IMG/VR virus record: IMGVR_UViG_3300027908_000001
Span: 23,167 to 87,166 of that record
Length of the DNA stretch: 64,000 bases
DNA from: a virus
Taxonomy: Duplodnaviria > Heunggongvirae > Uroviricota > Caudoviricetes
Direction: 5' to 3' (one strand)
This document shows positions 2,743 through 57,151 of the stretch, piece by piece. The translations under genes and the position numbers were made by a program. Every line of letters starts with the position of its first letter. The stretch's first letter is position 1. The notes below the pieces were generated by a model. That model was not told the origin of the DNA. It saw only the letters and a program-made list of their open reading frames with translations, and ran no database searches.

Positions 2743-4305
2743 TCAGACTTGGGCATGCGCCGCCATCCTTTCGAGCTTGAGCTTCTGGTACGCCTGTCCA
2801 ATCTTCCACCCGAGACTGTCCGGGGAGAGGTCTTTGCGGGCTTCGTAGCCGCCGTTCGGGCCACGGAACAAAAGCACTTCGCGACCGAATTTCGGAAAGC
2901 TCGGTGTGGCGAACGTTGCGAATTCCCACGCGTGATGGATACCAGCCAGCCGTTGGTTGGATTCCTCGAACTCGGCATCGCCCATCCGCTCTATGGAGTG
3001 ATGCGCGTCCAGCATGGACTCGAACCAGCCGCGCACTTCCCTCTGGGCGTCTGGATTGGCGAAGTCGTAGCCGTTAAGAGGCCAAGCCAGACTACCGACC
3101 TTCGCATTCGCCTGTAACTCGATGTACTTCACGCCAATCTCCTGACAGAATTTCTCGGACTGGTTGTAAAAGTCCGTGCCGATGCCGGTTCCCTGCCAGC
3201 CCGGATGGATGTCCAGACTCATGTTGTGACAGGCCAGATTGCCTTCCCTATCCAGACCGAGCACGCGGTGGAAGCGTCCGACCTGTTCAGACGTGTTCCG
3301 ATTGTAGATGTCCCCTGCCACGACCAGCGCCGGTTGGTTGTCCATGATGTGCGGGATGAACTTGTCGATGCGGACGGCCAAGTCGGGATGGTGTGGCACG
3401 CTGAAACCGGTTTCAAACTCTTCCTTGGTCATCCCGGTCAACTGCGGCGGCATCTTCTGCGGCTCCACCGCTGCGGAGGCGCTGGCAAACTTGCCGTGCT
3501 CGCCGCGGGGATGCAGTTCCTCACGCCACTCGGCGGCCTTGGCCAAATCCTCGACCAGCGCCGCATCCGAGATGTCCACCGACTTGGAGATGGGGACGGA
3601 CACTGGCCGGACGGTGATGGCGGAAAGGCGCAGATGGACGTTCTTGCCGACTTCGTGTACCTTAACCACGTCACCGCATGGGGTGGTTTGGACGGAGTAG
3701 AACCGGCCCGGTCGGATGGCGGCGCGGTCGAGCGGAGCGCCCAGTTCCGATTTCTTTAGGATGACTTCGAGCACCACAAGGTCATCAAGTGATTTCTTGA
3801 CCGGCCCCGCAGCATCCGCATCGAACAGGATTACCTGCGGGGAGAACCGTTTGTCAGATAGGTCCAGCACGCCATCGTAGCCTTGCGCGCGCAGATAGCG
3901 CTGGCGGCGACCAAAGTAATTCTCGCCATCTTGCATATCGGCATTCTCCGCCACTTCATGCAATAGTTTCTTGCCATCCGCTGGCGACCGCACCAATCGC
4001 AAGCGAATATCATTCGGCAGCGTGTACTTCAAAACCTGCGTGTCTTTGCCGGTGCCACGGTTTTCCTTGGCCCATCTCAGGGCTTTGTCGCGCTCGCCTG
4101 TGAGGTAGAACTGACCGGAGAGGCCGCCGGTCTTCGCACCAAAGGCTTTTATCTTGCGCGCCGAAGCCGCCGTCGTGCCGTGATACAGCACCGTTCCGGC
4201 GTGATAGATAGCAGCGTCGCCGTCGATGTGGTAAATCGCCGAGCCAGAATTGGCGAACCGGCCGCGCTCGTCGTGGTTGGGATTCGATTTTTGAAGGTGC
4301 ATCAT
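2743..4305 (-). CDS. polyvalent-type multidomain protein (520 aa) with NPNHDERGRF and ELHPRGEHGKF motifs
   Basis: Long ORF; N-terminal NPNHDERGRFA motif and internal HPRGEHGKF motif shared with neighbouring giant proteins; YHGT...GxFY module paralogous to modules in 1126- and 1600-aa proteins. Confidence 0.55.
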   Translation of the reverse strand: MMHLQKSNPNHDERGRFANSGSAIYHIDGDAAIYHAGTVLYHGTTAASARKIKAFGAKTGGLSGQFYLTGERDKALRWAKENRGTGKDTQVLKYTLPNDIRLRLVRSPADGKKLLHEVAENADMQDGENYFGRRQRYLRAQGYDGVLDLSDKRFSPQVILFDADAAGPVKKSLDDLVVLEVILKKSELGAPLDRAAIRPGRFYSVQTTPCGDVVKVHEVGKNVHLRLSAITVRPVSVPISKSVDISDAALVEDLAKAAEWREELHPRGEHGKFASASAAVEPQKMPPQLTGMTKEEFETGFSVPHHPDLAVRIDKFIPHIMDNQPALVVAGDIYNRNTSEQVGRFHRVLGLDREGNLACHNMSLDIHPGWQGTGIGTDFYNQSEKFCQEIGVKYIELQANAKVGSLAWPLNGYDFANPDAQREVRGWFESMLDAHHSIERMGDAEFEESNQRLAGIHHAWEFATFATPSFPKFGREVLLFRGPNGGYEARKDLSPDSLGWKIGQAYQKLKLERMAAHAQV

Positions 4306-4652: not shown

Positions 4653-5026
4653 CGGGCCAGACGCCGCGCCGCAGCCGGGGTAGAGGCCAGCGTGGCCGCC
4701 TTGCCGACAAGTTCGCGCGCTTCCATGACCTTGGCCACCTGAGAGGCTGGAATCGCGACATAGAACCGGACGGCCTGTTCACCGTCCATCTTGTTCAACC
4801 GCTCCTTGGATTTGCGGATTGGAGCGGGCAACGCTACATTCGGGTCTGGCCAGTCGGCGATGAAGGATTTTATGAGTTCGGAGTCCGGCGCGGGCTCGTC
4901 CTCAAAGAGGTTTGGCATCACGAACGGTCCGACATCCGGCAAGATGGCCGTTGCGTGGTCATCCCGACCCACGATACGCCAACCCTCGGGCACGGCTACG
5001 TCAGGCTTGAGTAGTATTGGCGTCAT
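4631..5026 (-). CDS. hypothetical protein (~131 aa; track ORF 4631..5170 trimmed to internal Met MTPILLKP)
   Basis: ORF track; start chosen to minimise overlap with the 1126-aa gene ending at 5001; protein-like composition. Confidence 0.3.
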   Translation of the reverse strand: MTPILLKPDVAVPEGWRIVGRDDHATAILPDVGPFVMPNLFEDEPAPDSELIKSFIADWPDPNVALPAPIRKSKERLNKMDGEQAVRFYVAIPASQVAKVMEARELVGKAATLASTPAAARRLARQRKVTS

Positions 5027-8000
5027 TGACGACTTTCTCCATGTACTCCAACAACGGCCAGTTCCGTTGATGGAAATCCTCGCGCTTGTAGTTCGGGGCT
5101 GTAACCGCGGCAAATGTTTCGGCGAACCCTTCCTTGGAATTATCGAAGCTATACGATGAAATGGTCTCATGCCGAATGTCGCTCAGGCTTCTCGCTGGCT
5201 TTTCCCCACCGGCGATATATTCCCGCTGCTGGCGCATCGCAACCTCGACCTCGGCGTCGTAGTCCTCCTTATACGGGGCGTACAATCCGCGCCATTCCTG
5301 CGCGCGAGCGATATCCGTGCTCTCAATCCCATCTTCGACATGATGGCCGTATTCGTGGTGCAGTATTCCTTCCAGAGAATCTCCGGGCACAGAACATTCT
5401 CCCGGCTTCACGTTAAATGGCTCGTCGGCGTTCACCTTGGAAATTTTACCACCCCAAAGTTGCGGCGTGTCATACACCACAATTCCGTTGCCGTGCATGT
5501 ACTCGGCTTGCGGCGTGTTCAGGTCCATAGGCTTGGAATCCGGTCGAGCCTGACTGAGTGATACGACCACCGGCACCTTTCCGTACTTCTCAAAGATACG
5601 CTGCATCGACGGGTCATTCCAGAATTTGTTGGCCGCCTTCTGAACGTCGTCATGAAACTGCGGGGTCACCTTGTCGGCCTCCGCGCCTGCGAACGTCTTG
5701 GACCAGCGACGCAGCACTCGGGTAAAGGCGGCCTTCTCTCCCGCCGAGAATCGAAGCGCCACATCGTCGGAATCGCCGGGCTTGACCATGCCCATTTTCT
5801 TGCGCCAAAGCGATACGGCCAGCATATTGGCGCGCTGGTCGTTTAACTCCTGAACCGTCATATCCTTGAGCTTGTCCAGCTTGGCCGCCTCAAGCTTCTG
5901 AAAGTGCGAGACGAACGCCCGCGCCGATTCCACCGAACCGGTTGGCACCACCCCGCTGACCGCGAACTCCCCCTTGGCATCCCGGGGGTGCTGCGCTGGG
6001 TCGAACGCCTTGCCGATGTCTGCTTCCTCGTGACTCCATGTGCCGCGATTGAAGGCCGACTTAATTTGGTGTGGCTCGAATGCCAGCCAAACGCTGTGAG
6101 TAGGGCCTCCCATTTTCCCGCCAGTGTCTTTGATGCCATCGTAACCAAATCTCTGCAGAATTGGCAGCGCATCCTTCGGGACCTGCGTGGCCCAGAACGT
6201 CTCCTTGCCGGTAGCCTCCTCTTCCTTGATGTCGCGCACCCAAGCCTTGAGCGGATATTCCTTCGTCCAATGCGTGTCGCTGATGACATCCTCGCTCGGC
6301 ATGCGTTTGCGCTTGACGGCGCTCTCCAAGACATCCATCAAATCTTTCGGAATCGGCTTGCCGCCGTCGAGCGGGTTCTTGATGCTAAGGTATAATGGGA
6401 ACACCGCCGGTTGCGACCAGTTGTACGCGTTCCATTTCAGGCCGATGTGGTCGAGTAGCTGCTCAAATGGACTCTTGTTCTGCCGCAGTGCGAACGGGCC
6501 TTCGCCTTCATCGGCATACGCAATGTTGTACCCCATTGACTCCATGACCTTAAAAATGGAGAATAGGTCTTTGGTGCCGCCGCGATAGAATGCTTGCCGT
6601 GAATCCTTGTCATAGTCCTTATTGTCGGCCACGTACTTGTCCAAGTCGAAGTGGACCCCGTCCTCTCGATTCAGGAACTCCTTGGCTTTCGCTGCCTGCT
6701 CCGGCGTCAGCGTGATTTGCCAGAGCTTCTTGTTGAACTCTCCGTTCTTACCGGCAATCCTATATTGGTCGCCGTTCTCGTAGGTTTCTTTCACGCCCAT
6801 TTTACCGGTCGCGTAATTGGAGGCAATGGCCGGGTCTTCGGTGGCGTAGAACGCGCCTGCGGTGGATTTGCGCGGGTTGAATCCTTTGCCGTAAAGCTGC
6901 GCATTGTTCTGACCGGAGTAGACGACCTTTGGCTGGCCTTTTTCATCCACGACTTTTGAACCAGCGAACCATGCTTTGAATGCTGGAGAAGAAGTGCCGC
7001 TCGTGAACTCCCCACCGCCTGCTGAGCCCTTCGGTACGCGCGGGTGAACGGCTTCATCGAAGGATTTGCGCATGTCATCCATCGCCTTGGCTACTTCCGC
7101 CGGTTCCTTGGTCACGTCTTTGCCATTGACGTGGGTGATGTGGATTCGTGAATCGTCGAAGATGACGTAGTTGTGGGTCTGCCGGTCCTTGGCTTTGTCG
7201 TAGTATGCCTTCGCATCGGCCTCGTGAATGAACTGCAAGGTGCCTTTCATTGAGTCATCCACTTCCCAAACGCTCGTCTTCGGGTCTTTGCGAGGTTCGT
7301 GGACACGACTGCCTTGGTCGAGGTACTTCAAACCCGGTATGCCGTTGGCTTTAAGCTCTTCGGAGGCGGCCTTGGGCGACCCTAACAGGTCGGAGAGTTC
7401 CGTGTAAAAAGTTGCCCCAGTCTTGTCGGACAGGTCGTACTCTTGAAATCGTCTCGATAGCTCACTGGCCTTATGGAAATCCGTTTCCTTGTTCACCACG
7501 TCATCTAGCACGTCCTTCACCGCCGACCGGATGCTGTCGTTCTGTTGGCTGAGCGGCCTGTCGTCATCCAATAATTCACCGGGCCTGACTGCCAACTTGA
7601 CCTGATACATATTGCCATGGCCCTGCGCGATTGCGCCTTTATCCACCGCGGCCAGTAGCGTATCGGCCTTGGCCTTCAATGCCTGCACGCCTTCGAGGTT
7701 TACTTCGAGGAACTCATTCGGCTTGTAGACCATGTCCTTGATGGCCTGAAATGTTTTTGCATGACCGTTCTGGCAGGTGCTGCTGTTGCCTTCATACTCC
7801 TTGGTGTCGGTCCAGTAGGTAATGCGCGCACCGTCGCTGGCCGTCCATTCTTGGCAGGGCACCGCTTTGCGCTCTGCGCCCCATCCATGCATGTACTCCA
7901 CGTCGACCGGCCCGGTCCACTTCCGCTCCCGGGCGTTCTTCACTTCGGCATCAACCTTGGCCTGATACTCGGACGCCCGCTGGTTGGCAACATCGACGGT

Positions 8001-8381
8001 GTTGGTCGCCCATTGCTTCAACTGATTCAGCGCGCGGGTCTGCGATGACTTGTTTGTAGAATTTAGCGCCACCTTGAGCTTGTTGTAGGCTGCATCGGTA
8101 ATCCCAAGGTCGTGCGCGTCGGCTCCGTCCACTAGAATAACATCGCCCAGCTTCTTGTAGCTCTCCGCAGTGGCTTGTTGGTCGGCGAAGTAGAGGCCGT
8201 ACCCGTATGCCTGCGCGCCTTCGCCTTCGCCGATATGGGATGAGGAAAACTCCGGTACTAGGTTCGGTGTGCCATGATACGCAACGATGCCGCCAGCGCC
8301 GTCCGATTCCGAGAACCGGCCTTTGTCGTCGTGGTGGACGTTAAACTTGGCGATGCGCCGCAATGTTGCGATGATGTTCAT
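5001..8381 (-). CDS. polyvalent-type giant protein (1126 aa) with C-terminal HExxH zinc-metallopeptidase motif
   Basis: ATG at 8381; motifs FNVHHDDKGRF (N-term), HPRVPKGSAGGGEF, HPRDAKGEFAV; HHEYGHH (HExxH) encoded at 5340..5360; TPEFKAWF...VVYSG...FYAT and SIKNPLD...GYDGI...QIKSAFN modules paralogous to modules in the 1600-aa protein. Confidence 0.65.
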   Translation of the reverse strand: MNIIATLRRIAKFNVHHDDKGRFSESDGAGGIVAYHGTPNLVPEFSSSHIGEGEGAQAYGYGLYFADQQATAESYKKLGDVILVDGADAHDLGITDAAYNKLKVALNSTNKSSQTRALNQLKQWATNTVDVANQRASEYQAKVDAEVKNARERKWTGPVDVEYMHGWGAERKAVPCQEWTASDGARITYWTDTKEYEGNSSTCQNGHAKTFQAIKDMVYKPNEFLEVNLEGVQALKAKADTLLAAVDKGAIAQGHGNMYQVKLAVRPGELLDDDRPLSQQNDSIRSAVKDVLDDVVNKETDFHKASELSRRFQEYDLSDKTGATFYTELSDLLGSPKAASEELKANGIPGLKYLDQGSRVHEPRKDPKTSVWEVDDSMKGTLQFIHEADAKAYYDKAKDRQTHNYVIFDDSRIHITHVNGKDVTKEPAEVAKAMDDMRKSFDEAVHPRVPKGSAGGGEFTSGTSSPAFKAWFAGSKVVDEKGQPKVVYSGQNNAQLYGKGFNPRKSTAGAFYATEDPAIASNYATGKMGVKETYENGDQYRIAGKNGEFNKKLWQITLTPEQAAKAKEFLNREDGVHFDLDKYVADNKDYDKDSRQAFYRGGTKDLFSIFKVMESMGYNIAYADEGEGPFALRQNKSPFEQLLDHIGLKWNAYNWSQPAVFPLYLSIKNPLDGGKPIPKDLMDVLESAVKRKRMPSEDVISDTHWTKEYPLKAWVRDIKEEEATGKETFWATQVPKDALPILQRFGYDGIKDTGGKMGGPTHSVWLAFEPHQIKSAFNRGTWSHEEADIGKAFDPAQHPRDAKGEFAVSGVVPTGSVESARAFVSHFQKLEAAKLDKLKDMTVQELNDQRANMLAVSLWRKKMGMVKPGDSDDVALRFSAGEKAAFTRVLRRWSKTFAGAEADKVTPQFHDDVQKAANKFWNDPSMQRIFEKYGKVPVVVSLSQARPDSKPMDLNTPQAEYMHGNGIVVYDTPQLWGGKISKVNADEPFNVKPGECSVPGDSLEGILHHEYGHHVEDGIESTDIARAQEWRGLYAPYKEDYDAEVEVAMRQQREYIAGGEKPARSLSDIRHETISSYSFDNSKEGFAETFAAVTAPNYKREDFHQRNWPLLEYMEKVVNDANTTQA

Positions 8382-11300
8382 GCTTCCTTGGTCAGCGGTA
8401 TCTCCGTATGCACTCCGGTCGGAGTGGAGAAATCAAGATGTGAAATGGGGATGGCCTTGCCTGCGAACCGGTCGTCTCCGACATACTTGTCCACGAACTC
8501 TGGTTTCAGATATGCAATCGTCATGTGGCCGATGTACTGGCCATCGAAATCGCTCTTGTACGGCAACCGTTTCAGGCGCTTGTTCATCCGGGTCAGCGCG
8601 CCGCCGTAGACCGGGACGTACAGCACGCGGTACTCCTTGCCTTCGCGTTGCGGGAACGATGCAGTCCGGCCGCACACGATGGTGAATGGCTCAAACTTGT
8701 CGGTGATGGCGCGAACGTCGGCAGGGTCTTGCGTATCCAGTCCGTAGAGCACCGTGGCGTGGATGTCTGTCTCGCGTCCGAAGTCCGGTCCGTAACTGTC
8801 GTCCGCGGCTGGCTCCGTGTAAAGCTCGCTGTCCGGTATCGACTTCCCGTACTCCAGAAACGGCTTGGCATCCTCGGGCTCGACCATGGCCATGACGCAG
8901 GACGCCGATAGCTTGGTGGCGTCGCGCTTGGCGAGCGGGGTCGTCAAGTCGGTGTCCTTTCCGTGTAGCCTGTCCCAGAGATAATCCAACTCGAAATAGT
9001 CGTAGGCCGCGTGGTGGCCGCGTGAGCCGCGCCGTACCGCTTGTGCCGTGGTCTCGCCCGGCAGGCCGTGCGTGATTTGAAGCTGCTTGTTTGTCGGGTC
9101 GGGCTTCGTGAAGTCGTAGCCGCGTTTCTCGATGTCCAGCGCGTGCTCGATTTCGTGCCGTATGGTGGACAGTTGGCGCTCCTTGACCTTGCCCTGCCAT
9201 GGCTCTGGACGTGGCAGCCCGATGACGAATTGCAGCGGCTTATTGGTGGCCTTGTCGTACTGGACGGAAATCTCGCCGTGCCGCGTGGACGTATCATGCC
9301 AAACGAACTTCGTAGGAGTCTGGATGCCAAACTTCTTCACATAGAATGCAACCGCCTTAGCCGGGTCGGTTGTGCCGGTTTCCTCGGCCACCAACTTGTG
9401 AATCAATTCCGTGGTGCGCTCGTTAATTGGGTCGTTATCGAACTGCGTCTTGGTCATACCCGCGACCTTTATCGCCGCCGCCTGTACCTCTGGGTCTTGA
9501 AACTTCGGCGCAAACTCTCCCCTGTCATCCCTCGGATGCTCGTCCTCTTCCCATGCCTTGCTGATGTCCGGGCTGTCGGCGTGCGGTGTCGGGTTGAATA
9601 CGGACTTGATTTGCGAAGGGTGGAACGCTATCCACGTGTCGCCGGAGTGGCCCGGCTGCACTTCGTTGCGGCTCGTGTTCTGGTAATGGATGCCGTCGTA
9701 GCCCAGCTTCACCAAGATGTCTTTGGCTTTCGCGGTGTGACGGTCGAGCAAGCCGATGCCGTAATCCTTTGCGAACTCATCCCATGACTCCCAGTTCCCG
9801 TACTTACCGCCGCTGTTGTGGAATCCTTTGCCGGACTGCAACGCGTCCCAGACTTCGCCGTAGTGCTGAATCTTCGCCGGGTCGGTGCTGTTATACGTCA
9901 CGGCCTTGATGAACAGGTTCTTGTCCGCCGGGAACACGACTTTCTCCACCGCGCGCGTGATGGCGTTCTGGTCGAACCCGGTATCTTCCGTGCCGACGTT
10001 CAGCGGGTGCTTGATGCTCAAGTAAACCGGGTACACCGCGCCACCGGGGATGAGCATCCGCACGCTGTAGTCCGGACCGAGCCGGTCGCGCATGCCCCAT
10101 GTGCTGCCGTGTTTGTTCACGTCGTAGGGCTCGACGGCGATGTCGTGGAGGTCTTTGTCTTGCTTGACCAATACCGGCAGACCGTCGTACTTGATTTCTC
10201 CATCCTTGCCCCGGTACCACGATTCGTCCGGATGATATTCGTTGACATGGAAATCTTGGGCGTAGGCGTACTCGCCTGCCGTAAACGCGTTCGGGACAGA
10301 TGGGTCGACGGCGAAGTGGGAGCCGACCTGCGTGTTGAAAAGTGATACGTTGTCCGTCGCGTCGGTCTTGAACTCGCTGAATGCCGCCCGGCTGCCGTGA
10401 TATACAACCAAGGGTTTCCCGTCCGGCGTCACGACCTTCGAGTCCCCGAACCATTGCTTGAATTCGGGCGTATTGGTCAAGTCACGCTTGACCTGCTGGC
10501 CCGGTTCCAAACTGTCGGAGCTTGTTGATATGTCCCGACCTTTCGCATCACCGGCTGCAAACCTTCCCCGCGCATCATGGTTGGGATTCGCCTTCCCCAC
10601 ATCTTCCGCCTCGCCGGTATCCAGCACTTCACCGCCGTCATCGCTCTGGGCGGCTGAGGCTTTTTCTTCGGCCAAGGTGGGCCAAGGATTTCTCGCCAAG
10701 TCTGGGTCTGTAAAGACATTTGTTGGCGGCTCCGTCTCAACCTCTTCATCCGGGCCAAGCTCGTATACGGCCTCCACGGCACAACGACAGTTCTTGACTA
10801 GGAAGCTCTCACACTGGTATAAATGGTACTGTGAAGCTTGGAAATCATACACATGGGTGCTCACCGAAAAATTCCTAATCTTGCTGATTTTGGCAGGCGC
10901 TATGAAGCTGGCGAACCTACCACAAAACTCGCTCGCGCGGCGGGTGTCACCAAGAGAACAATGAACATCCGTCTCCGAAGCATTGGAGTGCGAATCCGCA
11001 CCCCCAGTGAAGCGCAGCTTTTGAAGAATGTCCAATGGGGTCCGCGGAAGCGCCAAAGGATTACCGCTGCTGCTCACGCCGCCAATACCGGCAGAAAGCG
11101 AAGACACATTGAACTTGTCCATATTGCCCAAGGCCGAGAGCGCAACCAAACCCATATCTCCTATATTGAGGCTCCGCTTGCTGCCAGATTGCGGGATGCT
11201 GGCCTTGCGGTTACGCAACAAAAGGCGATTGACAAGTACAATATTGACATCGCTATTGAAGAACCGCGCATCGCCATAGAAATCTGTGGCGGCCAAGGTG

Positions 11301-13180
11301 CCATTTGGAATCGTTACCGCACCTTTTACAGCAAGCGCCTCAAATATATCCTCGACAGCGGTTGGGCCGTTGTAATGGTCTATACCATAGCCGCCCGCCA
11401 TCCCCTCACTGTCGGTTGTGACCAATACATATTCGCCCTCATTGAGCGACTTCGCCTGTCTGTAGCCGGTAGGCGTGAGTACCATGTGATTCGCGGTACA
11501 GGAAAGCCTACGCCCATTAGCAAGATGTATTTCAACCGCAGGCCCGACATAGAATACCTTGGATGCTGCGACGAGGTCTGGAATAATCGCCTTATTGCTT
11601 GGGAGGATGCAATTCGGATGGGCCGGAAACGCGTCTTGGATGTCTGAGATTGCCCAAACTCTTCCGTCGAAGCCATCGCAAATCGGGCATTCGTCAGGAG
11701 TACCAAGCCAGCGAGCCAAGGAAATTCCGTCATTTTGGTATGATGCCAATGCAGCCCGCACTTGTCCTCGCGCAAATTCGGTGCGGGCAATTCTGTCAGA
11801 CTCATACCCGGTCAAATCCTGAAATCGGTCATTGATAATTCCGCCCATTTCCTTGGTGGGAATACCGTCGCTCAATCCATCCACGAGCAAGTCCTTTATC
11901 GAGCTATCAATTCTCGAAAGCGTGCTCTCCGAAAACTTCATCGCATACTCTTGCAGCGCATCTTCCAGCGGCTCTTTGACGGCGGAGGCCAGCGTGTCCT
12001 CGTCTATCTCCAATTCATCGGCGGCGATGGCGATGCCGTCGTCCACCCCGGCCGATTGCGTAATCATCAGCGCGTCGGCCAGTTCGGCAATCGCATCTTC
12101 ACCGGCATCCGGGAAAGCGTCCTGCAGGATGGCTTCGATGTCGAACTCGAATTCTTCCGGGTCGGGTAGGTCATCGTCGTCGGGGTCGTCTTTGGCTATG
12201 CGCGTGAAGGTTTTCCAGACGCGGGCCAGTAGGGACTTGGTGATATCTTTCTCTTTGGGGTCGAACGTGCCGCGGTTGCCGATGGCGGATTTGACCTGCT
12301 CGGGGTCGAACGCCGCGTAGGTGGTAGCGAATCCACTCTTGCTATCCTCATAGAATATTGCGCCGTCGTATCCCAATTTCTTCAGCACACCAACAAATTC
12401 AGCGCCATCCTTGTCATCGAAAAACTCCCAGTAGTTGGAGGCGTTCCTGTAATAGGATGGATTCAGGCCAGCGCCCTTCAACTCATCAAGCGTGTCCTCA
12501 TCAAATCCATTGCGTAAATCCAGCGGGGACTTGATGTTCATGTAAACCGGCATGACGTTGGTGCCGGGTTCTTCAGGGTTAATATATTCCTGAGCGAACT
12601 TCGGATTCTCGGTCGCGAATATGGCACTGCGCTGAGTCTCGAAGTTACCAAAAAATCCGTAGTTATTGATGCTCTTCCTGCCGACTTCAAATGTGCTGAA
12701 ATCCCCCTTGGTTGCATGGAACAGTTCCAGTGGCTTGCCGTCTTTCATGACCACGGATACCGGCGGCAGACTCGGGTCGCGCTTGGACGACCATGCGTGC
12801 GGGTCTTGCCAGTCGCCGAACCAAGCTTTGAACTCTGGTGTTGTAGTCTGCGAAGCGAACTCACCGCCGCCGGTCGCGCCTTTCGGATTCCGTGGATGCT
12901 TGGATTCATCCCACGCCTTGGCAATCCGGCCGAGTAACGACTTCTTGACCGGCACCGGCGGATGCTTGGCGAGCGCTGCCAGTACGCGACCGCGCCACTT
13001 CGCGAACACTGCGGCGATGGCGGCCTTGCCAGCCTTTAGTCCGGGCTCATCTTCAAAATGCGGGGCGTCCTTGGCCTTGGAGATGCACGTCCGGCATCCA
13101 CACGCCGTCAGCGAGATGCGACATTCATGGACGGCGTCGAATAGTTCTTGGGCTTCGGCTTTGGAGAGTCGAACTGGCAC
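8378..13180 (-). CDS. polyvalent-type giant protein (1600 aa) containing a MuF/SPP1-gp7-like head-morphogenesis domain interrupted by an intein
   Basis: Track ORF with GTG start at 13180; MuF-like block RIARTEFARGQ...WLGTPDECPICDGFDGRVWAISDIQDAFPAHPN|C...N|CRCAVEAV; HPRNPKGATGGGEF, NPNHDARGRFA, EHPRDDRGEFA motifs; two copies of the TPEFK(A/Q)WFGD...(Y/F)H(G/A)(S/T) and (S/N)IK(H/S)PL...GYDG(A/I)...Q(I/V)KS(A/V) modules. Confidence 0.7.
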   Translation of the reverse strand: MPVRLSKAEAQELFDAVHECRISLTACGCRTCISKAKDAPHFEDEPGLKAGKAAIAAVFAKWRGRVLAALAKHPPVPVKKSLLGRIAKAWDESKHPRNPKGATGGGEFASQTTTPEFKAWFGDWQDPHAWSSKRDPSLPPVSVVMKDGKPLELFHATKGDFSTFEVGRKSINNYGFFGNFETQRSAIFATENPKFAQEYINPEEPGTNVMPVYMNIKSPLDLRNGFDEDTLDELKGAGLNPSYYRNASNYWEFFDDKDGAEFVGVLKKLGYDGAIFYEDSKSGFATTYAAFDPEQVKSAIGNRGTFDPKEKDITKSLLARVWKTFTRIAKDDPDDDDLPDPEEFEFDIEAILQDAFPDAGEDAIAELADALMITQSAGVDDGIAIAADELEIDEDTLASAVKEPLEDALQEYAMKFSESTLSRIDSSIKDLLVDGLSDGIPTKEMGGIINDRFQDLTGYESDRIARTEFARGQVRAALASYQNDGISLARWLGTPDECPICDGFDGRVWAISDIQDAFPAHPNCILPSNKAIIPDLVAASKVFYVGPAVEIHLANGRRLSCTANHMVLTPTGYRQAKSLNEGEYVLVTTDSEGMAGGYGIDHYNGPTAVEDIFEALAVKGAVTIPNGTLAATDFYGDARFFNSDVNIVLVNRLLLRNRKASIPQSGSKRSLNIGDMGLVALSALGNMDKFNVSSLSAGIGGVSSSGNPLALPRTPLDILQKLRFTGGADSHSNASETDVHCSLGDTRRASEFCGRFASFIAPAKISKIRNFSVSTHVYDFQASQYHLYQCESFLVKNCRCAVEAVYELGPDEEVETEPPTNVFTDPDLARNPWPTLAEEKASAAQSDDGGEVLDTGEAEDVGKANPNHDARGRFAAGDAKGRDISTSSDSLEPGQQVKRDLTNTPEFKQWFGDSKVVTPDGKPLVVYHGSRAAFSEFKTDATDNVSLFNTQVGSHFAVDPSVPNAFTAGEYAYAQDFHVNEYHPDESWYRGKDGEIKYDGLPVLVKQDKDLHDIAVEPYDVNKHGSTWGMRDRLGPDYSVRMLIPGGAVYPVYLSIKHPLNVGTEDTGFDQNAITRAVEKVVFPADKNLFIKAVTYNSTDPAKIQHYGEVWDALQSGKGFHNSGGKYGNWESWDEFAKDYGIGLLDRHTAKAKDILVKLGYDGIHYQNTSRNEVQPGHSGDTWIAFHPSQIKSVFNPTPHADSPDISKAWEEDEHPRDDRGEFAPKFQDPEVQAAAIKVAGMTKTQFDNDPINERTTELIHKLVAEETGTTDPAKAVAFYVKKFGIQTPTKFVWHDTSTRHGEISVQYDKATNKPLQFVIGLPRPEPWQGKVKERQLSTIRHEIEHALDIEKRGYDFTKPDPTNKQLQITHGLPGETTAQAVRRGSRGHHAAYDYFELDYLWDRLHGKDTDLTTPLAKRDATKLSASCVMAMVEPEDAKPFLEYGKSIPDSELYTEPAADDSYGPDFGRETDIHATVLYGLDTQDPADVRAITDKFEPFTIVCGRTASFPQREGKEYRVLYVPVYGGALTRMNKRLKRLPYKSDFDGQYIGHMTIAYLKPEFVDKYVGDDRFAGKAIPISHLDFSTPTGVHTEIPLTKEA
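10790..11611 (-). other. Hint-domain intein (274 aa) inserted in the MuF HPNCRC motif
   Basis: N-extein ends ...FPAHPN, intein begins C(11611..11609)ILPSNK..., block-B-like GRRLSCTANHMVLT, C-terminal block HVYDFQASQYHLYQCESFLVKN(10792..10790) followed by extein Cys (10789..10787) RCAVEAV; removal regenerates HPNCRC, the canonical MuF motif. Confidence 0.5.
10838..11647 (+). CDS. HTH + DUF559/Vsr-like PD-(D/E)xK endonuclease-domain protein, encoded antisense inside the intein
   Basis: Track ORF (TTG at 10838; first ATG at 10853); HTH-like TTKLARAAGVTKRTMNIRLRSIGV; DUF559-like block YNIDIAIEEPRIAIEICGGQGAIWNRYRTFYSKRLKYILDSGWAVVMVY (cf. family pattern D-x-a...vvEiDGgqH...D..R...L...GW.VlRf). 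Confidence 0.45.
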   Translation: MEIIHMGAHRKIPNLADFGRRYEAGEPTTKLARAAGVTKRTMNIRLRSIGVRIRTPSEAQLLKNVQWGPRKRQRITAAAHAANTGRKRRHIELVHIAQGRERNQTHISYIEAPLAARLRDAGLAVTQQKAIDKYNIDIAIEEPRIAIEICGGQGAIWNRYRTFYSKRLKYILDSGWAVVMVYTIAARHPLTVGCDQYIFALIERLRLSVAGRREYHVIRGTGKPTPISKMYFNRRPDIEYLGCCDEVWNNRLIAWEDAIRMGRKRVLDV

Positions 13181-13194: not shown

Positions 13195-13860
13195 TTACGG
13201 CTCTTTGTGGTAGGAATCAATCTGTTCTTGGTCGGATTTGGAAACGCCGTTCAGGGACGCTTGGAATCGAGCGTCAAGGTCGTCCTTCATCTTTTGCGGC
13301 AAAGTCGAATAAGAGTCCTCAGTGTGCCCCTGCCGCGCCAAGAACGATGTCCTTGCGTCGTTACTATCGATGGGGGCCACGCCGCCGCGCCGCTCGCTGC
13401 CATGACCGCCTGCATCTTTGGCCTTACCCAAAAACTCGCTGGCCGTCTTGCGCACCGGCGACGGTTTGTCAATGACCTCGGCCCACTTCGATTGCCAGTC
13501 ATCGAACGACTTACGGACCCGGCCTGATATGCCGAGACACTTGGTTGCGGTGCTGTGGAGCGTTGAACCCAACTGGAAACCCGCGTCGGATTTCAGGAAC
13601 TCGACGGCCTTGGATTCGGTAATGCCACTCTTAATGAGACTTGACACTACCAAATCATCGTAACGCGCGTCCCTGACGGCCTTGAAGAACCCTCCACCGG
13701 CTTCGGCACGTAGGCGCTTGGCGAGGTTCTGGGATTCAAAGTGACGGTGGACGGGCGTCGGCAGCCTAGGCGCGGGCGCACCCGACACCTTGGCGACCGG
13801 CTCGAACGTCGTCTTGAGGTTGTCAAAAGATTTGAATATGCCGCTGAATTTCCCGCTCAT
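13195..13860 (-). CDS. hypothetical virion-associated protein (221 aa) with KAKDAGGHGSERRG motif
   Basis: Track ORF, ATG at 13860, TAA at 13195..13197; shares KAKDAxGHGSxxRG motif with 14451..17699 and 19745..20458. Confidence 0.45.
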   Translation of the reverse strand: MSGKFSGIFKSFDNLKTTFEPVAKVSGAPAPRLPTPVHRHFESQNLAKRLRAEAGGGFFKAVRDARYDDLVVSSLIKSGITESKAVEFLKSDAGFQLGSTLHSTATKCLGISGRVRKSFDDWQSKWAEVIDKPSPVRKTASEFLGKAKDAGGHGSERRGGVAPIDSNDARTSFLARQGHTEDSYSTLPQKMKDDLDARFQASLNGVSKSDQEQIDSYHKEP

Positions 13861-14450: not shown

Positions 14451-17400
14451 TTAGACTTGGCCGCCGGATTTGACGATGTTCTGCATGCGACCGAGTAGGC
14501 CAGCCGGTTTTTGGCCTGACTTGGATACCGAATTATCCGGGCCGGTCTCGTGGGCATAATAAACCCCTTTGTCGGTAGAAACCATTGCCATGCCAAGCCT
14601 GTTATTTTCGTGGCCGATTACGGTTGCTGGTCCGGAGTAGCTATCATGGTCGTTTACACTCACTTTGGTGCCGACAGGATATTTATTCCGTAATGCGTCC
14701 AGAGCACTAGCGGCTCGCGCACGCCTTTCCGAGCCATGTCCACCCGCATCCTTGGCCTTCGCAAACGCCGCAATGACAGCCATCGGGTCCGAATCATCGA
14801 CCGGTCCGGTCGTCTCGTTGTCCAGATTATCCCCGGCTTCCCATCCGCAGGCCGAGCATACAAACACTCCGCCTACGCCGTTGTCCGTGTGGTCCATCGT
14901 GCCGCCGCAGTTCGGGCATACGACCTTGTCGGCTTGGCCGGTCGATACGTTGACCGCACCGGTGTTGCCGGAGAAGGTCTTGGCCAGTTCGAGCGCCTTC
15001 TCCACTTCGTGCGAGTCGTCGGCCTTTTCAACGAATGCTGAAATGGCATCGGAATCTGAAACTGTCTTACCGACGTGCTGCGCTATGCTACCGGCAATGC
15101 GTTTGGCGGAATCTTCGGAGTATCCCTTGGCCTGCATGTACTTCACCGCGTTGTCGAACCGTTCGCCGGTCCCGGCTTCACCTTTGAAGTGGCCGCCTTC
15201 CGTGTACTTCGATTCGGCGTCGTCGGACTTAACAACCACTGCATCCTTCGCCTTCGCCACGTGCGCCGCGCTCGTTAATTCCAGTGCCTTGCCGATGGCG
15301 ACTGGCTTGCCGCTCCGGCTCTTGTACAGGTCGAAATCGAAATCATCCGTGTCATCCCAGTCCGCGCTCTGGCCCAATTGCGCGCAGATGTCCTTGGCTT
15401 CGTAGGGGTCCATGGACTGGTCGGTAACGAGGCTGCTCATGCAGTCGTCCATGCTGGAGAATTCGCTGGCGTCGGCGTCCTTGCGAACCACGACCGGCTT
15501 TGACGCCTTGGTCAGGCCGACTAATGCGCCCATGAATTTCAGTGTCTTGCCGATGACCCGTTGCCCCGCCGTCTCGTGCGTGGGCGTGACGGCTTCCATT
15601 TCCTGCTTGGTGCGTTCCATAATTTCTTGATTCCTCTCCGCTTCGGTCGGGCGCTGGTCTACCTTGATGACAATTCTTTCGGATTGAAGTTTTTTGATTG
15701 CCCGGTTTATCGTGGCGATGTCTTTGGGCACGCTCATGCCGCTATCCCGTAGACCCTCAAGCGCCTTTATTTGTGCATCGGTTCCGGGTGCTCTATTTGC
15801 CGCCCAAGTAATGGCGGTGCCGACTGTCATACGGCTTTGCTTTTCTTCCTCGGATTCTTCCCCGCGCTTATTCGACCCGTGCCCAAGAGCATCCTTAGCC
15901 TTGCTCACGTCATCGTCATCCACGCTGTCCATATCGTAGGCTTCGTCGTTGCTCTCTCCGCAGGCCGGACAGACTGCCGCGCCGCCGCTGACCTTCGCGT
16001 CGGACATCGATGCGCCGCAGTTCTTGCACTTCCATGCCTTCTGGACCGGGGCAGTCGGAGCCGCCGGTTGCGTGGCCTTCCCACCTCCGCCGCCGGACGT
16101 ATCGCCCGTGTCGTCATCCCATTCTTCCATGTCGGAGGTCTTGCCGCAGGAGCCGCACTTCAGCGCGTCGCCTTGGAATTGCACTTTGTCCGGCATCTGG
16201 CCGCACGCCGGGCAGTTCGATATGGATTTACCAATTTGCACGTCACCCATGGTAACGCGGCTGCCATCGGACTTGTGAATCACGACTGCCACCACGATAC
16301 CATCGGCATTCGCCACCTCGGTTCGCATTGCCTTCTCCACGCTCTTGTCCGCGCCCGGCCAGCGACCAAGGTACTTTTTGTGAAGGGCAGCACATAAAGC
16401 GTTCGGGTCAGATACGCCACTCATCGGCGCTATTTCTTTGACGCAATAGTTGAAAAATCCTCCATCATCCTCGCGCTCTTGGGCCGTCTTGTGCTCGCCG
16501 TCGGCCTTCTTGATGCCGCGCTCGGCGTTATACATGGCCTCGCCCTTCTGGTGCGCGGTCTGGAATTCGTCGCTCTCCAGTTCGTTACTCGCCATGTGAT
16601 GCTGAATCGCCGCCTCTTTGATTGCCGGTGCCGCCCACGCCCGCTGAGCCTCCATAGCCTTGTAGTGGTCGTTGTTGACGCTTTGAACCCTGTCCAAGTA
16701 CCCGTTCCAATCCAGTTTGCCTGCCTCGGCGTCACGGTGGATACGGCCCATACTGTAATGCATGGCTGCTTCGGCTGAGTTGAAGTTGGCATGATGCGGG
16801 TCGTTGTTGGCGCGCGCTGCGAGCGCCGCCTGACCATAAGCCTTGCCTGCATCCTCGTTCGACCGGGCCGCTGCCGCATGCGCGCCGCGGTCGTCGAATC
16901 GTGGGCTGAGCGCTCGCGAGGTATCTTCGGTGGCAATGTTACCACGCGTAACCGCCAAAGCTGATAGCGCTTCGGACTTCTCGCCGAGCCGGTCGCCACG
17001 CTTATTGCTGCCATGGCCCTTGGCATCCTTCTCTTTAGAAACCTGCACGATGGCCTTGGCCAGCGCCGTGTCCTCATCCGTGACCCGGATTTTCAGCAGC
17101 TTCATGTTGTGCTTTTCCATCCGGTCGGCGCAGCTTGGGCAAATCTTCGCGATGATGGCTATCGGGACTCTCAGGACAATGCCTTCAGTAGCCCTAGCTT
17201 TGTTCACCGCGTCTTGAAGAAGAACAGCACGTGCGTGTTCATCCAAGTTCTTGAAAATATCGTCATCATCCCACAAGGCATCCTGACCGAGCTTGTCGCA
17301 AATGTCGGACGCTTCACCGTAATCGTGGCCGTTGTCCTGAATCATCGTGGTCATACATTGCTCGCGGTTCTCGAAGTCAGTGGGCTCGGCACCGTCGCTG

Positions 17401-56340: not shown

Positions 56341-56395
56341 GATTGTCGCGTTCTACCATTCGCCGAAAGGGGTCAGGACGGTCGCCATGTCGCGC

Positions 56396-57151
56396 TCAGT
56401 TAAACCGCACGTGTTCGGCCAGCGCGGTCTGTTCCAGCGCCTCGGGTTCCATGCCCACGCTCATCGTGAAGTTTAGTCTTTCCGAACCCGACCTTGGTTC
56501 GACGTGCAACTCCATCTGGTTGCACAGTTTGACCTGCATCAACGGCGATGGGCCGATGAGTATCGGTCCGCCCATCACGCTCTTGTTTTCGGGGTCACTA
56601 TTGGGCATGGCATCCAGTGCGATGGCTTTCAGGCCGAACAAGTCTTTATGGTTATGCTCGTCTCTCCACAAATCCATGGCATGCGAGCCGTAGAAGATGG
56701 GGCCGTCGCTCGTTTTCACCAAAGCTTTGATGGCCGCCAGTGCAGCAGCCGGGTCGCCCCACCATCTGGCATCATATCGCCTTTCTTTCGGCACCTGCGC
56801 GATGATGCCGTCCTCCATCCCCAGCAATCCTTGTGGACCAGCTTTCTTGCCATTGATAAACAAATCCATCAGGTCAAATGCCGACCGTTCCGCGGCAATT
56901 TGCAGCAGTGTGTCCACGAATCCAGACTTGTCTATGTTTCGTTCGATGGTTTCATCGCTGATGGTAGTAAAACCATCCAGCTTTACCGGCTGGGGCTCAC
57001 TTACGACGGTTATTTTCCACGCCCTCAGTCCATCGAAGGATTGTTGGAGATGACGCGCGAACACCTGAACGGATTCTACGTTCATGTGCTCGAAGTCCGG
57101 CGCGATGCTGCGGATGTGCTCTTTGAATTTGGAGTGGGTGTCGCTGTTCAT
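56396..57151 (-). CDS. hypothetical protein (trimmed from 56396..57202)
   Basis: Track ORF between terminase and portal. Confidence 0.3.
   Translation of the reverse strand: MNSDTHSKFKEHIRSIAPDFEHMNVESVQVFARHLQQSFDGLRAWKITVVSEPQPVKLDGFTTISDETIERNIDKSGFVDTLLQIAAERSAFDLMDLFINGKKAGPQGLLGMEDGIIAQVPKERRYDARWWGDPAAALAAIKALVKTSDGPIFYGSHAMDLWRDEHNHKDLFGLKAIALDAMPNSDPENKSVMGGPILIGPSPLMQVKLCNQMELHVEPRSGSERLNFTMSVGMEPEALEQTALAEHVRFN

What the first reader, a model, noticed from the sequence alone, without database searches (positions are those of the whole stretch)
10790..11611. Intein splits the universally conserved HPNCRC motif of a MuF (SPP1 gp7-like) head-morphogenesis domain inside a 1600-aa polyvalent protein
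Upstream of 11611 the minus-strand protein reads as a canonical MuF domain (RIARTEFARGQ...WLGTPDECPICDGFDGRVW...FPAHPN). The next residue is Cys, followed by about 270 aa with Hint blocks: G-RRLSCTANHMVLT (block B; T and H present) and HVYDFQASQYHLYQCESFLVKN (blocks F/G, terminal Asn). Immediately after comes C-R-C-AVEAV. Deleting residues 524-797 reconstitutes HPN|CRC, the signature motif of MuF/gp7 proteins, so this is an intein at a catalytic or structural hot-spot. I recall no report of an intein in a MuF domain. The penultimate residue is Lys rather than the usual His.
Basis: partly seen in the sequence, partly recalled or inferred. Interest (0 to 1): 0.8.

Follow-up and report, generated by a model that had tools for sequence, protein, structure and literature searches.

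The report
MuF intein with antisense homing endonuclease
A self-splicing protein insert (intein) really does interrupt the conserved HPN|CRC motif of a phage head-assembly (MuF) domain, and its middle is the mirror-image reading of a DNA-cutting "homing" gene on the opposite strand, a rare layout first described in 2025 for Gordonia phages, so this is a new example and not a new kind.

Summary
Residues 524-797 (10790-11611, minus strand) of a 1600-aa phage polyvalent protein form a class-1 intein: Cys1, block B T39/H42, terminal Asn274 and +1 Cys. Removing it in silico restores HPN|CRC and lifts the Pfam Phage_Mu_F score above its threshold.

A 264-269 aa ORF on the plus strand (10853/10838-11647) lies codon-for-codon antisense inside the intein. 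It encodes an HTH plus Vsr-like (MTES_1575/DUF559) nuclease. All 106 relatives whose DNA I examined show the same layout. They come from metagenomes, IMG/VR, GTDB genomes, a Salmonella Jerseyvirus and Gordonia phage Malisha. In each, the nuclease gene is antisense inside an intein in a MuF-like protein, and the intein frame has no stop codons.

Substitution patterns show selection on the nuclease frame in the centre and on the intein frame at the C-terminal end, with the same, non-significant lean at the N-terminal end.

This architecture ("minor capsid, MuF-like; VSR -1 ORF") was reported by Gosselin, Arsenault & Gogarten (bioRxiv 2025). A 2021 paper on Jerseyvirus phages already names an "intein-containing capsid morphogenesis protein".

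The window's nuclease lacks two near-invariant histidines and may be inactive.

Verdict: real, well explained, and a new member of a known, recently described kind. Interest is moderate.

The parts
8378..13180 (-). Host gene: 1600-aa polyvalent phage protein (ART-PolyVal repeats, MuF domain, weak 2'-5' RNA ligase-like C-terminus); 1326 aa after splicing
   Evidence: ORF list; Pfam; spliced length
11612..11902 (-). N-extein part of the MuF domain (residues 427-523), ending ...CPICDGFDG...FPAHPN
   Evidence: Pfam Phage_Mu_F match 427-524; 33.8 bits, above the gathering score, after in-silico splicing
10790..11611 (-). Class-1 intein, 274 aa (Cys524 to Asn797 of the precursor)
   Evidence: Translation; Pfam Intein_splicing 1.8e-7; family profile hits only inteins in the PDB; invariant C1, T39, H42, N274
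11402..11611 (-). N-terminal Hint subdomain (about intein residues 1-70; block A Cys1; block B T39-A-N-H42 at 11486-11497). It overlaps the C-terminal core and tail of the plus-strand endonuclease ORF.
   Evidence: PDB profile alignment stretch 13-62. In 10 pairs of relatives, changes lean to the intein frame's third codon position here: zones Z3/Z4, minus-frame synonymous 72 and 55 against plus-frame synonymous 44 and 30; position bias not significant
10907..11401 (-). Intein 'linker' (about residues 71-235): no domain of its own; the in-register antisense reading of the endonuclease gene, kept free of stop codons
   Evidence: No Pfam hit for this stretch. In relatives, 426 plus-frame synonymous against 161 minus-frame synonymous codon changes. 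0 stops in this frame across the endonuclease match/gene in 106/106 loci
10790..10906 (-). C-terminal Hint subdomain (blocks F and G: THVYDFQASQYHLYQCESFLVKN, terminal Asn797, penultimate Lys)
   Evidence: PDB profile stretch 235-266. In relatives, minus-frame third-position changes 66 against first-position 20, p=7e-7
10781..10789 (-). C-extein Cys798-Arg-Cys: the +1 nucleophile and the rest of the MuF HPNCRC motif
   Evidence: Translation; +1..+3 is CRC in 38 of 58 distinct family members
10853..11647 (+). Antisense homing-endonuclease ORF, 264 aa from ATG 10853 (269 aa if TTG 10838 is used). The ATG is the reverse complement of the CAT codon of block-F His253. The TGA stop at 11645-11647 is the complement of the Ser512 codon in the N-extein.
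   Evidence: ORF list; sequence. 8 homologues at 1e-21 to 1e-38 start at the equivalent Met. Intact 230-313 aa ORFs in 52/52 family members with an identifiable start and stop
10880..10981 (+). Helix-turn-helix DNA-binding module of the endonuclease (residues 15-48 in 269-aa numbering)
   Evidence: Pfam HTH_7 weak hit, E=0.1; three confident helices in the AF2 model, pLDDT 85-91
11168..11515 (+). Vsr-like PD-(D/E)xK nuclease core (residues 111-226). D137 and E148 are conserved. The near-invariant family residues His155, His160 and Trp182 are Ala, Tyr and Tyr here.
   Evidence: Pfam MTES_1575 1.7e-5 and DUF559 0.016; Foldseek top specific hits 3hrl, 1vsr, 3r3p; conservation table and local alignment
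11516..11644 (+). Endonuclease C-terminal tail (residues 227-269), predicted without structure; it exists because the ORF reads on through the antisense of the N-Hint region
   Evidence: pLDDT below 50 for 227-269. Family stop codons mostly lie 2-22 codons inside the intein N-terminus; this copy runs furthest, 11 codons into the extein
10799..10834 (+). Three plus-frame stop codons (TAG 10799, TAA 10820, TGA 10832) that close the endonuclease frame just upstream of its start
   Evidence: Sequence; codon counts

Best explanation
This is a mobile intein whose homing endonuclease is encoded on the opposite DNA strand.

On the minus strand, the 1600-aa polyvalent precursor is translated straight through the 274-codon insert. 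The N-terminal ~70 and C-terminal ~40 residues of the insert fold into a Hint domain around a ~165-residue linker with no evident structure. Splicing then follows the class-1 route. Cys524 makes the thioester, it is passed to Cys798, Asn797 cyclises, and HPN is joined to CRC. That restores the MuF domain, which together with the upstream CPIC probably forms a Cys/His metal site.

On the plus strand, the same DNA, read codon-for-codon in register, encodes a separate 264-aa protein: an HTH DNA-binding module, a helical linker and a Vsr-like nuclease. In active family members this enzyme would cut intein-free MuF alleles of co-infecting phages near the HPNCRC-coding site, and repair from the intein-bearing copy would spread the element (homing).

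Shown here: both ORFs are open; both have homologues and profile or fold matches; the arrangement recurs in all 106 related loci examined; and selection acts on the nuclease frame in the centre and on the intein frame at the C-terminal end, with the same but non-significant lean at the N-terminal end.

Inferred: actual splicing, expression of the antisense gene, and DNA cleavage.

In this particular copy two near-invariant histidines of the nuclease motif (GGxWH...H) are replaced by Ala and Tyr. The nuclease may therefore be dead, with the element kept only because the intein still splices.
For: Intein. The junction and catalytic residues are present. Pfam Intein_splicing is 1.8e-7. The family profile hits only inteins in the PDB, best 1e-11. 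C1, T39, H42 and N274 are invariant in 55 sequences. MuF rises to 33.8 bits, above the 29.6 gathering score, only after in-silico splicing.

Antisense gene.
- AT skew flips sign at 10800-11400.
- Pfam MTES_1575 1.7e-5, DUF559 0.016, HTH_7 0.1.
- 8 homologues at 1e-21 to 1e-38, seven with precomputed PF18741.
- A profile search finds 1288 cluster representatives at E<=1e-30.
- The AF2 model is confident for residues 10-226, with Vsr, DUF559-like and I-Bth0305I as the top specific fold hits.

Recurrence. The in-register antisense frame has 0 stops across the endonuclease match/gene in 11/11 loci, in 80/80 IMG/VR loci (the other two frames average 15.5 and 8.2 stops) and in 15/15 GTDB loci. Both junctions were located in 84 of the first 91 loci (58 distinct inteins); the GTDB loci were read by eye, and all but one (L098) show the same MuF site.

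Selection, 10 independent pairs.
- Centre: plus-frame third position 774 against first position 546 (p=4e-10); 426 plus-frame synonymous against 161 minus-frame synonymous codon changes.
- C-terminal Hint: the reverse, 66 against 20 (p=7e-7).

Link to the literature. tblastn hits Gordonia phages Malisha (7e-16), Vivi2 and Fosterous, all listed in the preprint's Supplemental Table 1 as 'minor capsid, MuF-like, class 1, VSR -1 ORF'.
Against: - No experiment: splicing, antisense transcription or translation, and cleavage are all inferred.
- The window's own Pfam hits for Intein_splicing (31.5 bits against 35.8) and MTES_1575 (25.2 against 38.2) are below the gathering scores.
- Codon-usage scoring within the window does not separate the two frames.
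- The promoter scan found no sigma-70-like site upstream of the plus ORF. A TTGACT-N18-TATAAA that I saw by eye at 10794-10823 fails the scan's criteria.
- Foldseek E-values are weak (6e-3 to 6e-2).
- For this single locus, the chance that the minus frame stays open across the endonuclease gene is only modestly low (P about 0.04). The strength comes from the family.
- The window's nuclease lacks His155, His160 and Trp182.
- In the N-terminal Hint zones the codon-position bias towards the intein frame is not significant (p=0.08 and 0.11).
Confidence: 0.85

Rival explanations
1. The element is a fixed, decaying remnant. The intein still splices because it must, but the antisense endonuclease in this copy is catalytically dead and the element no longer homes. 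This is a rival only about present-day function. It shares the anatomy of the best explanation.
For: The window's protein has Ala, Tyr and Tyr where 98%, 92% and 98% of family members have His155, His160 and Trp182. These lie in the GGxWH...H motif, which aligns with the Vsr FWH motif. No frameshift explains the change. From memory, Vsr His69 in that motif is essential for catalysis. The ORF also reads 11 codons into the N-extein, the longest tail in the family.
Against: The plus ORF is still fully open over 264 codons, although chance would close it (P about 0.002 if only the intein frame were constrained). D137, E148, R167 and the HTH are conserved. Salmonella phage BPS11Q3 also lacks the first His (GGGWA), so that residue may not be indispensable.
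Confidence: 0.45
2. One reading: a conventional intein whose central ~165 residues are an in-frame domain (a degenerate endonuclease or a new domain), with the plus-strand ORF a chance antisense ORF.
For: In moderately GC-rich DNA the in-register antisense frame is often open. Codon-usage scores within the window do not discriminate.
Against: The central minus-frame segment has no family hit, whereas the plus frame hits MTES_1575, DUF559 and HTH, folds confidently, and matches Vsr-like structures. In relatives, changes in the centre are 2.6 times more often synonymous in the plus frame than in the minus frame. AT skew flips.
Confidence: 0.03
3. The insert is not removed at the protein level. 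It is either a tolerated in-frame insertion (a dead intein or a BIL-like domain) or an RNA-level element such as a group I intron carrying an antisense endonuclease gene.
For: The penultimate His is missing. No splicing experiment exists.
Against: All four class-1 catalytic positions are present and invariant across 55 sequences, and the Hint ends are under purifying selection in the protein frame. An intron would not need an open frame, yet the frame is open in 106/106 loci. Rfam finds no intron or any other RNA family at 10300-12100, even at E<=1. The insert splits a conserved Cys/His motif of MuF, and leaving it there would probably disable the domain.
Confidence: 0.04

Closest known systems
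Actinobacteriophage MuF-like minor capsid inteins with an antisense ('-1 ORF') VSR-like homing endonuclease (Gosselin, Arsenault & Gogarten, bioRxiv 10.1101/2025.01.02.630785; Gordonia phages Malisha, Vivi2, Angelicage, Affeca, Fosterous and others)
   Same: Same host domain (MuF / IPR006528). Same insertion site in Malisha (SHDN|C...VHN|CKC). Class-1 intein. Endonuclease on the antisense strand in the in-register frame. Direct sequence homology of the endonuclease (Malisha 33.6% identity, E=7e-16; Vivi2 and Fosterous weaker). Unstructured in-frame linker.
   Different: The host protein here is a 1600-aa polyvalent protein of an unidentified ~56% GC phage, not an actinophage minor capsid protein. 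Identity to those members is only 24-34%. This copy lacks the two conserved histidines.
[quoted passage not shown]
   Same: Same site (PPAHPN|CLLGD...AHN|CRS in BPS11Q3). The same antisense HTH + Vsr-like ORF sits inside the intein. 62 Salmonella phage records match.
   Different: About 30% identity. The cited paper names the intein but, in the passages I read, does not describe an antisense endonuclease. In some of the matching phage records the host protein is annotated as an ADP-ribosyltransferase.
Antisense or out-of-frame LAGLIDADG endonucleases in inteins (Synechocystis dnaX, Gorbalenya 1998 as cited; Phillips et al., bioRxiv 10.64898/2026.09.14.751524)
   Same: The homing endonuclease is encoded in a different reading frame or strand from the Hint domain, within the intein's insertion loop. 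There is frame-specific purifying selection on the endonuclease.
   Different: Different nuclease fold (LAGLIDADG against Vsr-like PD-(D/E)xK), different host genes, and a bacterial rather than phage setting.
'Fractured genes': split inteins with a free-standing Vsr-like endonuclease gene between the halves (Dassa et al. 2009, PMC2677866); I-Bth0305I / EDxHD family (PMC3239194; PDB 3r3p)
   Same: A Vsr-like nuclease associated with an intein in phage-like metagenomic DNA. The nuclease ORF overlaps the neighbouring intein part. 3r3p is among the top fold hits.
   Different: There the host gene is broken into two ORFs and trans-splices. Here the intein ORF is contiguous and the nuclease gene lies on the opposite strand.

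Membership tests
Class-1 intein (Hint domain) | N-terminal Cys/Ser nucleophile at intein position 1 | tested here: met
   Cys524 (11611-11609); invariant in 55 family sequences
Class-1 intein (Hint domain) | Block B T-x-x-H | tested here: met
   T39-A-N-H42; both invariant
Class-1 intein (Hint domain) | C-terminal Asn followed by a +1 Cys/Ser/Thr in the extein | tested here: met
   Asn797 | Cys798; N274 invariant; +1 is Cys in all 58 distinct members
Class-1 intein (Hint domain) | Penultimate His (common, not obligatory) | tested here: not met
   Lys273. Family: Ser 28, Lys 17, His 13. Splicing without this His is documented for other inteins (from memory, not checked here).
Class-1 intein (Hint domain) | Sequence or profile homology to known Hint domains | tested here: met
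   The family profile hits 20 PDB sequences: 19 inteins or intein-derived constructs and one bacterial intein-like domain, best 1.1e-11. The window alone scores Pfam Intein_splicing 31.5 bits, E=1.8e-7, below the 35.8 gathering score.
Class-1 intein (Hint domain) | In-frame insertion whose removal restores a conserved host domain | tested here: met
   Phage_Mu_F rises from 21.9 to 33.8 bits (gathering score 29.6), aligned across the junction to profile position 111 of 112
Class-1 intein (Hint domain) | Autocatalytic protein splicing | not testable with these tools
   Needs expression and mutants. A single-sequence AF2 model was uninformative (pLDDT 33).
MuF-intein with antisense VSR-like endonuclease (Gosselin et al. 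2025) | Host is a MuF-like minor capsid domain | tested here: met
   Pfam PF04233 above threshold after splicing. InterPro IPR006528 itself was not run.
MuF-intein with antisense VSR-like endonuclease (Gosselin et al. 2025) | Endonuclease ORF on the antisense strand within the intein (-1 ORF) | tested here: met
   Plus ORF 10838/10853-11647 against intein 10790-11611 on the minus strand; second codon positions coincide
MuF-intein with antisense VSR-like endonuclease (Gosselin et al. 2025) | Homology to the listed members | tested here: met
   tblastn: Malisha 7e-16, Vivi2 1e-6, Fosterous 7e-5, all under their MuF genes on the opposite strand. These phages are listed in the preprint's Supplemental Table 1.
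Vsr-like PD-(D/E)xK nuclease (Pfam MTES_1575 / DUF559) | Profile match | tested here: inconclusive
   Window: MTES_1575 25.2 bits (gathering score 38.2), E=1.7e-5; DUF559 15.5 bits (20.6). Seven of 8 homologues carry precomputed PF18741.
Vsr-like PD-(D/E)xK nuclease (Pfam MTES_1575 / DUF559) | Fold | tested here: met
   AF2 pLDDT 76-94 over the core. Foldseek: 3hrl prob 0.96, 1vsr prob 0.97 (TM 0.52 relative to target), 3r3p prob 0.93; E-values are weak.
Vsr-like PD-(D/E)xK nuclease (Pfam MTES_1575 / DUF559) | Full set of family-conserved active-site residues | tested here: not met
   D137, E148 and R167 are present. His155 is Ala and His160 is Tyr (98% and 92% conserved in the family).
Homing endonuclease (functional class) | Cleaves the intein-less allele; presence/absence polymorphism among close relatives | not testable with these tools
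   The search with the spliced extein found no homologues at E<=1e-5, so no intein-less close relative could be compared.
Split intein / fractured gene (Dassa 2009) | Host gene broken into two ORFs, each carrying an intein half | tested here: not met
   A single uninterrupted 1600-codon ORF
Group I/II intron | Match to an intron RNA model | tested here: not met
   Rfam: no match at E<=1 in 10300-12100

The most novel reading that the evidence does not exclude
The intein and its antisense endonuclease may be one long-lived, interlocked gene pair specialised on the MuF HPN|CRC site in phages of many bacterial phyla, rather than an occasional recent invasion of a mini-intein confined to actinophages.

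- All 106 relatives whose DNA I examined have the arrangement.
- The endonuclease start codon is the complement of the block-F His codon.
- In 15 of 52 members the plus-frame stop lies 3 codons inside the intein N-terminus, which I infer is the complement of the Leu3 codon (not checked codon by codon).
- The conserved endonuclease motif (Y/H)VIRGxG is the mirror image of Hint block B (T-x-N-H).

If so, this would be one of the most widespread true sense/antisense dual-coding gene pairs in viruses. The window's copy, with its lost histidines, could then mark a post-homing or repurposed state.
Probability: 0.5. Interest if true: 0.5.

Novelty: new member of a known kind. Interest (0 to 1): 0.38.

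Why it matters
Gene callers pick one strand, so one of the two genes is routinely missed. In the short metagenomic contigs only the endonuclease was called. In phage genomes only the MuF gene is annotated over the match, in several records as 'hypothetical protein' or 'ADP-ribosyltransferase'.

Recognising the layout gives the correct mature MuF/polyvalent protein (1326 aa, not 1600). It explains an apparently unstructured 165-residue block. It also provides a natural, widespread case of two functional proteins read from opposite strands of the same codons.

The family supports the view that free-standing endonucleases colonise inteins. Because it occurs in culturable Salmonella Jerseyvirus phages, it offers a tractable system for testing homing, antisense expression and dual-coding constraint.

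None of this is conceptually new after the 2025 preprint. The added value here is the breadth outside actinophages and the codon-level anatomy.

Tried and rejected
- blastn of the whole gene against 50,697 phage records found no match, so the phage remains unidentified.
- Codon-usage log-likelihood and GC3 scoring within the window could not tell which strand codes in the centre. The element looks compositionally foreign on both strands.
- The sigma-70 promoter/terminator scan found nothing convincing upstream of the plus ORF, with counts no higher than in shuffled sequence.
- NCBIfam and PHROGs gave nothing useful for the endonuclease. NCBIfam gave only weak intein-containing-protein hits for the intein.
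The single-sequence model was uninformative (pLDDT 33), so there is no structural test of the Hint fold or of linker disorder for this copy.
- The search for intein-less homologues of the spliced MuF region found no hits at E<=1e-5.
- An ungapped comparison of L010 and L011 was misleading because of compensating indels, so I replaced it with codon alignments.
- My first boundary regexes mis-called several C-termini and I refined them. 7 of 91 loci still lacked one boundary, through contig ends, a deletion (L017), or in one case (L012) my own off-frame input.
- Rejected on the evidence: group I/II intron, split intein, and chance antisense ORF.
Full report
**1. Observation**

The minus-strand ORF 8378-13180 encodes 1600 aa. 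Residues 524-797 map exactly to 10790-11611.

The penultimate residue is Lys.

Pfam finds ART-PolyVal (2e-34), a weak 2'-5' RNA ligase-like C-terminus, Phage_Mu_F at 427-524 and Intein_splicing. On the 274-aa segment alone, Intein_splicing scores E=1.8e-7 as a split match over residues 18-274, below its gathering score.

Removing residues 524-797 in silico raises the Phage_Mu_F score from 21.9 bits (profile positions 2-95) to 33.8 bits (positions 2-111 of 112; gathering score 29.6). The alignment runs across the HPN|CRC junction.

The window is a phage. A portal gene lies at 54787-56340 and a large terminase at 57712-59247, and a second ART-PolyVal polyvalent protein follows directly downstream.

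**2.

The ORF list shows a plus-strand ORF, 10838-11647 (269 aa), almost coextensive with the intein. Its codons are in register with the intein's, so second codon positions coincide (worked out).

- AT skew is negative across the surrounding minus-strand genes and turns positive at 10800-11400.
- The plus-strand protein hits Pfam MTES_1575 (a Vsr-like restriction-endonuclease fold, E=1.7e-5), DUF559 (0.016) and HTH_7 (0.1). The central part of the intein frame hits nothing.
- It has 8 database homologues at E 1e-21 to 1e-38 and 34-41% identity. Seven carry a precomputed PF18741 domain.
- A profile of these finds 1288 cluster representatives at E<=1e-30 among 1.84 billion proteins.
- An AF2 model built on the 9-sequence alignment is confident for residues 10-226 (pLDDT 76-94, apart from a dip to ~51 around residues 151-160). 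It shows an N-terminal helical HTH region and an alpha/beta core. Residues 227-269 fall below 50.
- The most specific Foldseek hits are a DUF559-like endonuclease (3hrl, prob 0.96), E. coli Vsr (1vsr, prob 0.97) and the I-Bth0305I catalytic domain (3r3p, prob 0.93). Their E-values are weak.

**3. The arrangement recurs**

I fetched the contigs of all 8 homologues. In every one the nuclease gene lies antisense and in register inside an intein at the same MuF site. Examples are ELHPN|CLLPDN...VVKN|CLC, PAHPN|CILPGN...IVHN|CRC and TLHPR|CLLPGS...LTSN|CRC. That frame has 0 stops across the nuclease gene, against 5-36 in the other two antisense frames.

tblastn against annotated phage genomes finds 80 records: 62 Salmonella (Jerseyvirus), 9 Gordonia, plus Aaphi23, S1249, Escherichia, Shigella and Pantoea phages. 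In the annotated records listed, the feature under the match is a gene called head morphogenesis, minor capsid, MuF-like, structural protein, ADP-ribosyltransferase or hypothetical protein. In the two I opened, the gene lies on the opposite strand.

- BPS11Q3 reads PPAHPN|CLLGD...IIAHN|CRS.
- Malisha reads SHDN|CFPAG...IVHN|CKC.
- Both have intact antisense ORFs.

In IMG/VR, 269 stretches encode a relative. All 80 that were kept have 0 stops in the in-register antisense frame, against means of 15.5 and 8.2 in the other frames. The same holds for 15 of 15 loci from GTDB genomes and MAGs spanning Bacteroidales, Actinomycetota, Chloroflexota, Omnitrophota and others.

Among 58 distinct inteins:

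- the N-extein ends HPN in 29;
- the C-extein starts CRC in 38;
- the penultimate residue is Ser in 28, Lys in 17 and His in 13;
- lengths cluster at 264-278 or 305-336 residues. The longer class probably carries a duplicated HTH (two profile stretches in many relatives; not checked per locus).

A 55-sequence intein alignment has C1, G23, T39, H42, G49 and N274 invariant. Its profile matches only inteins or intein-like domains in the PDB, in two stretches corresponding to blocks A/B and F/G (best Mja KlbA 2jmz, 1.1e-11).

**4. Which frame is selected where**

I built codon alignments for 10 phylogenetically independent pairs with 70-88% nucleotide identity.

| Zone | Position bias | Synonymous codon changes |
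|---|---|---|
| Last 21 intein codons (blocks F/G) | intein-frame third position 66 vs first position 20 (p=7e-7) | 53 of 81 changed codons synonymous for the intein, 11 for the plus frame |
| Centre | nuclease-frame third position 774 vs first position 546 (p=4e-10) | 426 synonymous for the nuclease, 161 for the intein frame |
| N-terminal Hint region (two zones) | leans to the intein frame, 116 vs 90 and 90 vs 69, not significant | intein-frame synonymous 72 and 55, nuclease-frame 44 and 30 |

So the C-terminal Hint end is selected as protein on the minus strand, and the middle as protein on the plus strand. The middle of the minus frame is constrained mainly to stay open.

**5. Fine anatomy in the window**

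- The plus frame is closed by TAG, TAA and TGA at 10799-10834.
- Homologues start at the Met equivalent to ATG 10853, which is the reverse complement of the CAT codon of block-F His253.
- The TGA stop at 11645-11647 is the complement of the Ser512 codon, 11 codons into the N-extein. That is the longest read-through in the family, where stops usually lie 2-22 codons inside the intein. Fifteen of 52 members stop 3 codons inside the N-terminus, which I infer is the complement of the Leu3 codon.
- The conserved nuclease motif E-Y-H-V-I-R-G-x-G (residues 214-222) is the mirror image of block B (T-A-N-H-M-V-L).
- The folded nuclease core (to residue 226) truly overlaps intein residues ~32-70.
- Given the window's codon usage, the chance that the minus frame stays open across the nuclease gene is about 0.04. 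The chance that the plus frame stays open across the intein is about 0.002.

**6. State of this copy**

All intein catalytic positions are intact.

The nuclease keeps D137, E148, R167 and the HTH. But it has Ala, Tyr and Tyr where 98%, 92% and 98% of family members have His155, His160 and Trp182: GGQGAIWNRYR here against GGxWHxxxxH in the family. No frameshift accounts for the change.

The WH aligns with the FWH motif of Vsr. I recall, but did not test, that its His is catalytic. I therefore rate an inactive nuclease at about 45%.

**7. Comparison with what is known**

Gosselin, Arsenault & Gogarten (bioRxiv 10.1101/2025.01.02.630785) surveyed PhagesDB.

- They report inteins in 'minor capsid, MuF-like (IPR006528)' proteins carrying non-canonical endonucleases, including a 'VSR -1 ORF'. 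The phages include Malisha, Vivi2, Angelicage, Affeca and Fosterous.
- They report an unstructured in-frame region and a Vsr-like predicted fold.
- They propose invasion of an intein by a free-standing endonuclease.

Three of those phages are direct tblastn hits of the window's ORF.

Antisense LAGLIDADG endonucleases in inteins go back to Gorbalenya 1998, as cited there. A 2026 preprint treats the dnaX case with frame-specific selection. Vsr-like endonucleases with split inteins were described by Dassa et al. 2009. A 2021 paper on Jerseyvirus phages names an 'intein-containing capsid morphogenesis protein'.

What may go beyond the preprint:

- the breadth outside actinophages (Jerseyvirus, Aaphi23, and hundreds of IMG/VR and MAG loci);
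- the invariable association of this nuclease family's closest members with the MuF site;
- the codon-level interlocking.

**8. Verdict**

The best explanation is a class-1 intein with an antisense-encoded Vsr-like homing endonuclease (confidence 0.85 for the architecture and mechanism; splicing and cleavage are inferred). It is a new member of a known, recently described kind. Interest is moderate (0.38).

Noticed in passing
L098 (GTDB MAG, Frankiales; JAYTHM010000095.1), minus frame around 504-1187: A related intein with the same antisense endonuclease family sits at a different MuF site. It is inserted at the upstream CxxC motif (...WFSERDA|CFIASTRV...AVHN|CVVCLALSG...), and the HPRCRC motif is intact further downstream. 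This suggests a switch of insertion site within the same host domain.
   Followed up: partly
window 12857-12898, 9512-9538 (1600-aa protein); 7005-7046, 5964-5990 (1126-aa protein); 3487-3513 (520-aa protein): A short motif (D/E)-x-x-H-P-R-x(2-9)-G-x-F recurs at apparent domain boundaries of three consecutive large proteins, for example WDESKHPRNPKGATGGGEFAS and WEEDEHPRDDRGEFAPK. It could be a linker or a processing site of polyvalent virion proteins.
   Followed up: no
window 16998-17030, 15864-15896, 14721-14753 (1082-aa protein) and 13387-13419 (221-aa protein): A second repeated motif, K-(A/E)-K-D-A-x-G-H-G-S-x-x-R, occurs three times in the 1082-aa zinc-ribbon-rich protein and once in the neighbouring 221-aa protein. 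Its function is unknown.
   Followed up: no
window 5001-8381 (-) and 8378-13180 (-): Two consecutive polyvalent proteins (1126 and 1600 aa) both carry ART-PolyVal domains, and their stop and start codons overlap (8378-8381). They lie about 40 kb from the portal and terminase genes (54787-59247), an unusual distance for a MuF gene, which normally follows the portal gene.
   Followed up: partly
L017 (IMGVR_UViG_3300033143_002086): One family member lacks the intein's Cys1 and the first few residues (...PPRHPG VAFGPVSAAAKSFYVG...) while keeping the rest of the intein and an open frame. This may be a deletion that would abolish splicing, or an assembly error.
   Followed up: no
L001-L011 (short metagenomic contigs) and phage records H1-H70: Automatic annotation calls only one of the two overlapping genes. 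On the short contigs only the endonuclease was called. In the complete phage genomes I opened only the MuF gene is annotated, and in some records the feature under the match is named 'NAD+--asparagine ADP-ribosyltransferase' or 'hypothetical protein'.
   Followed up: partly
window 10794-10823 (+): By eye there is a TTGACT-N18-TATAAA with a TG one base upstream of the second hexamer, 30 nt before ATG 10853, inside the antisense of intein block G. The consensus scan did not call it (its last base is A, not T), and the TTGAC partly follows from the Val-Lys codons of the intein.
   Followed up: partly
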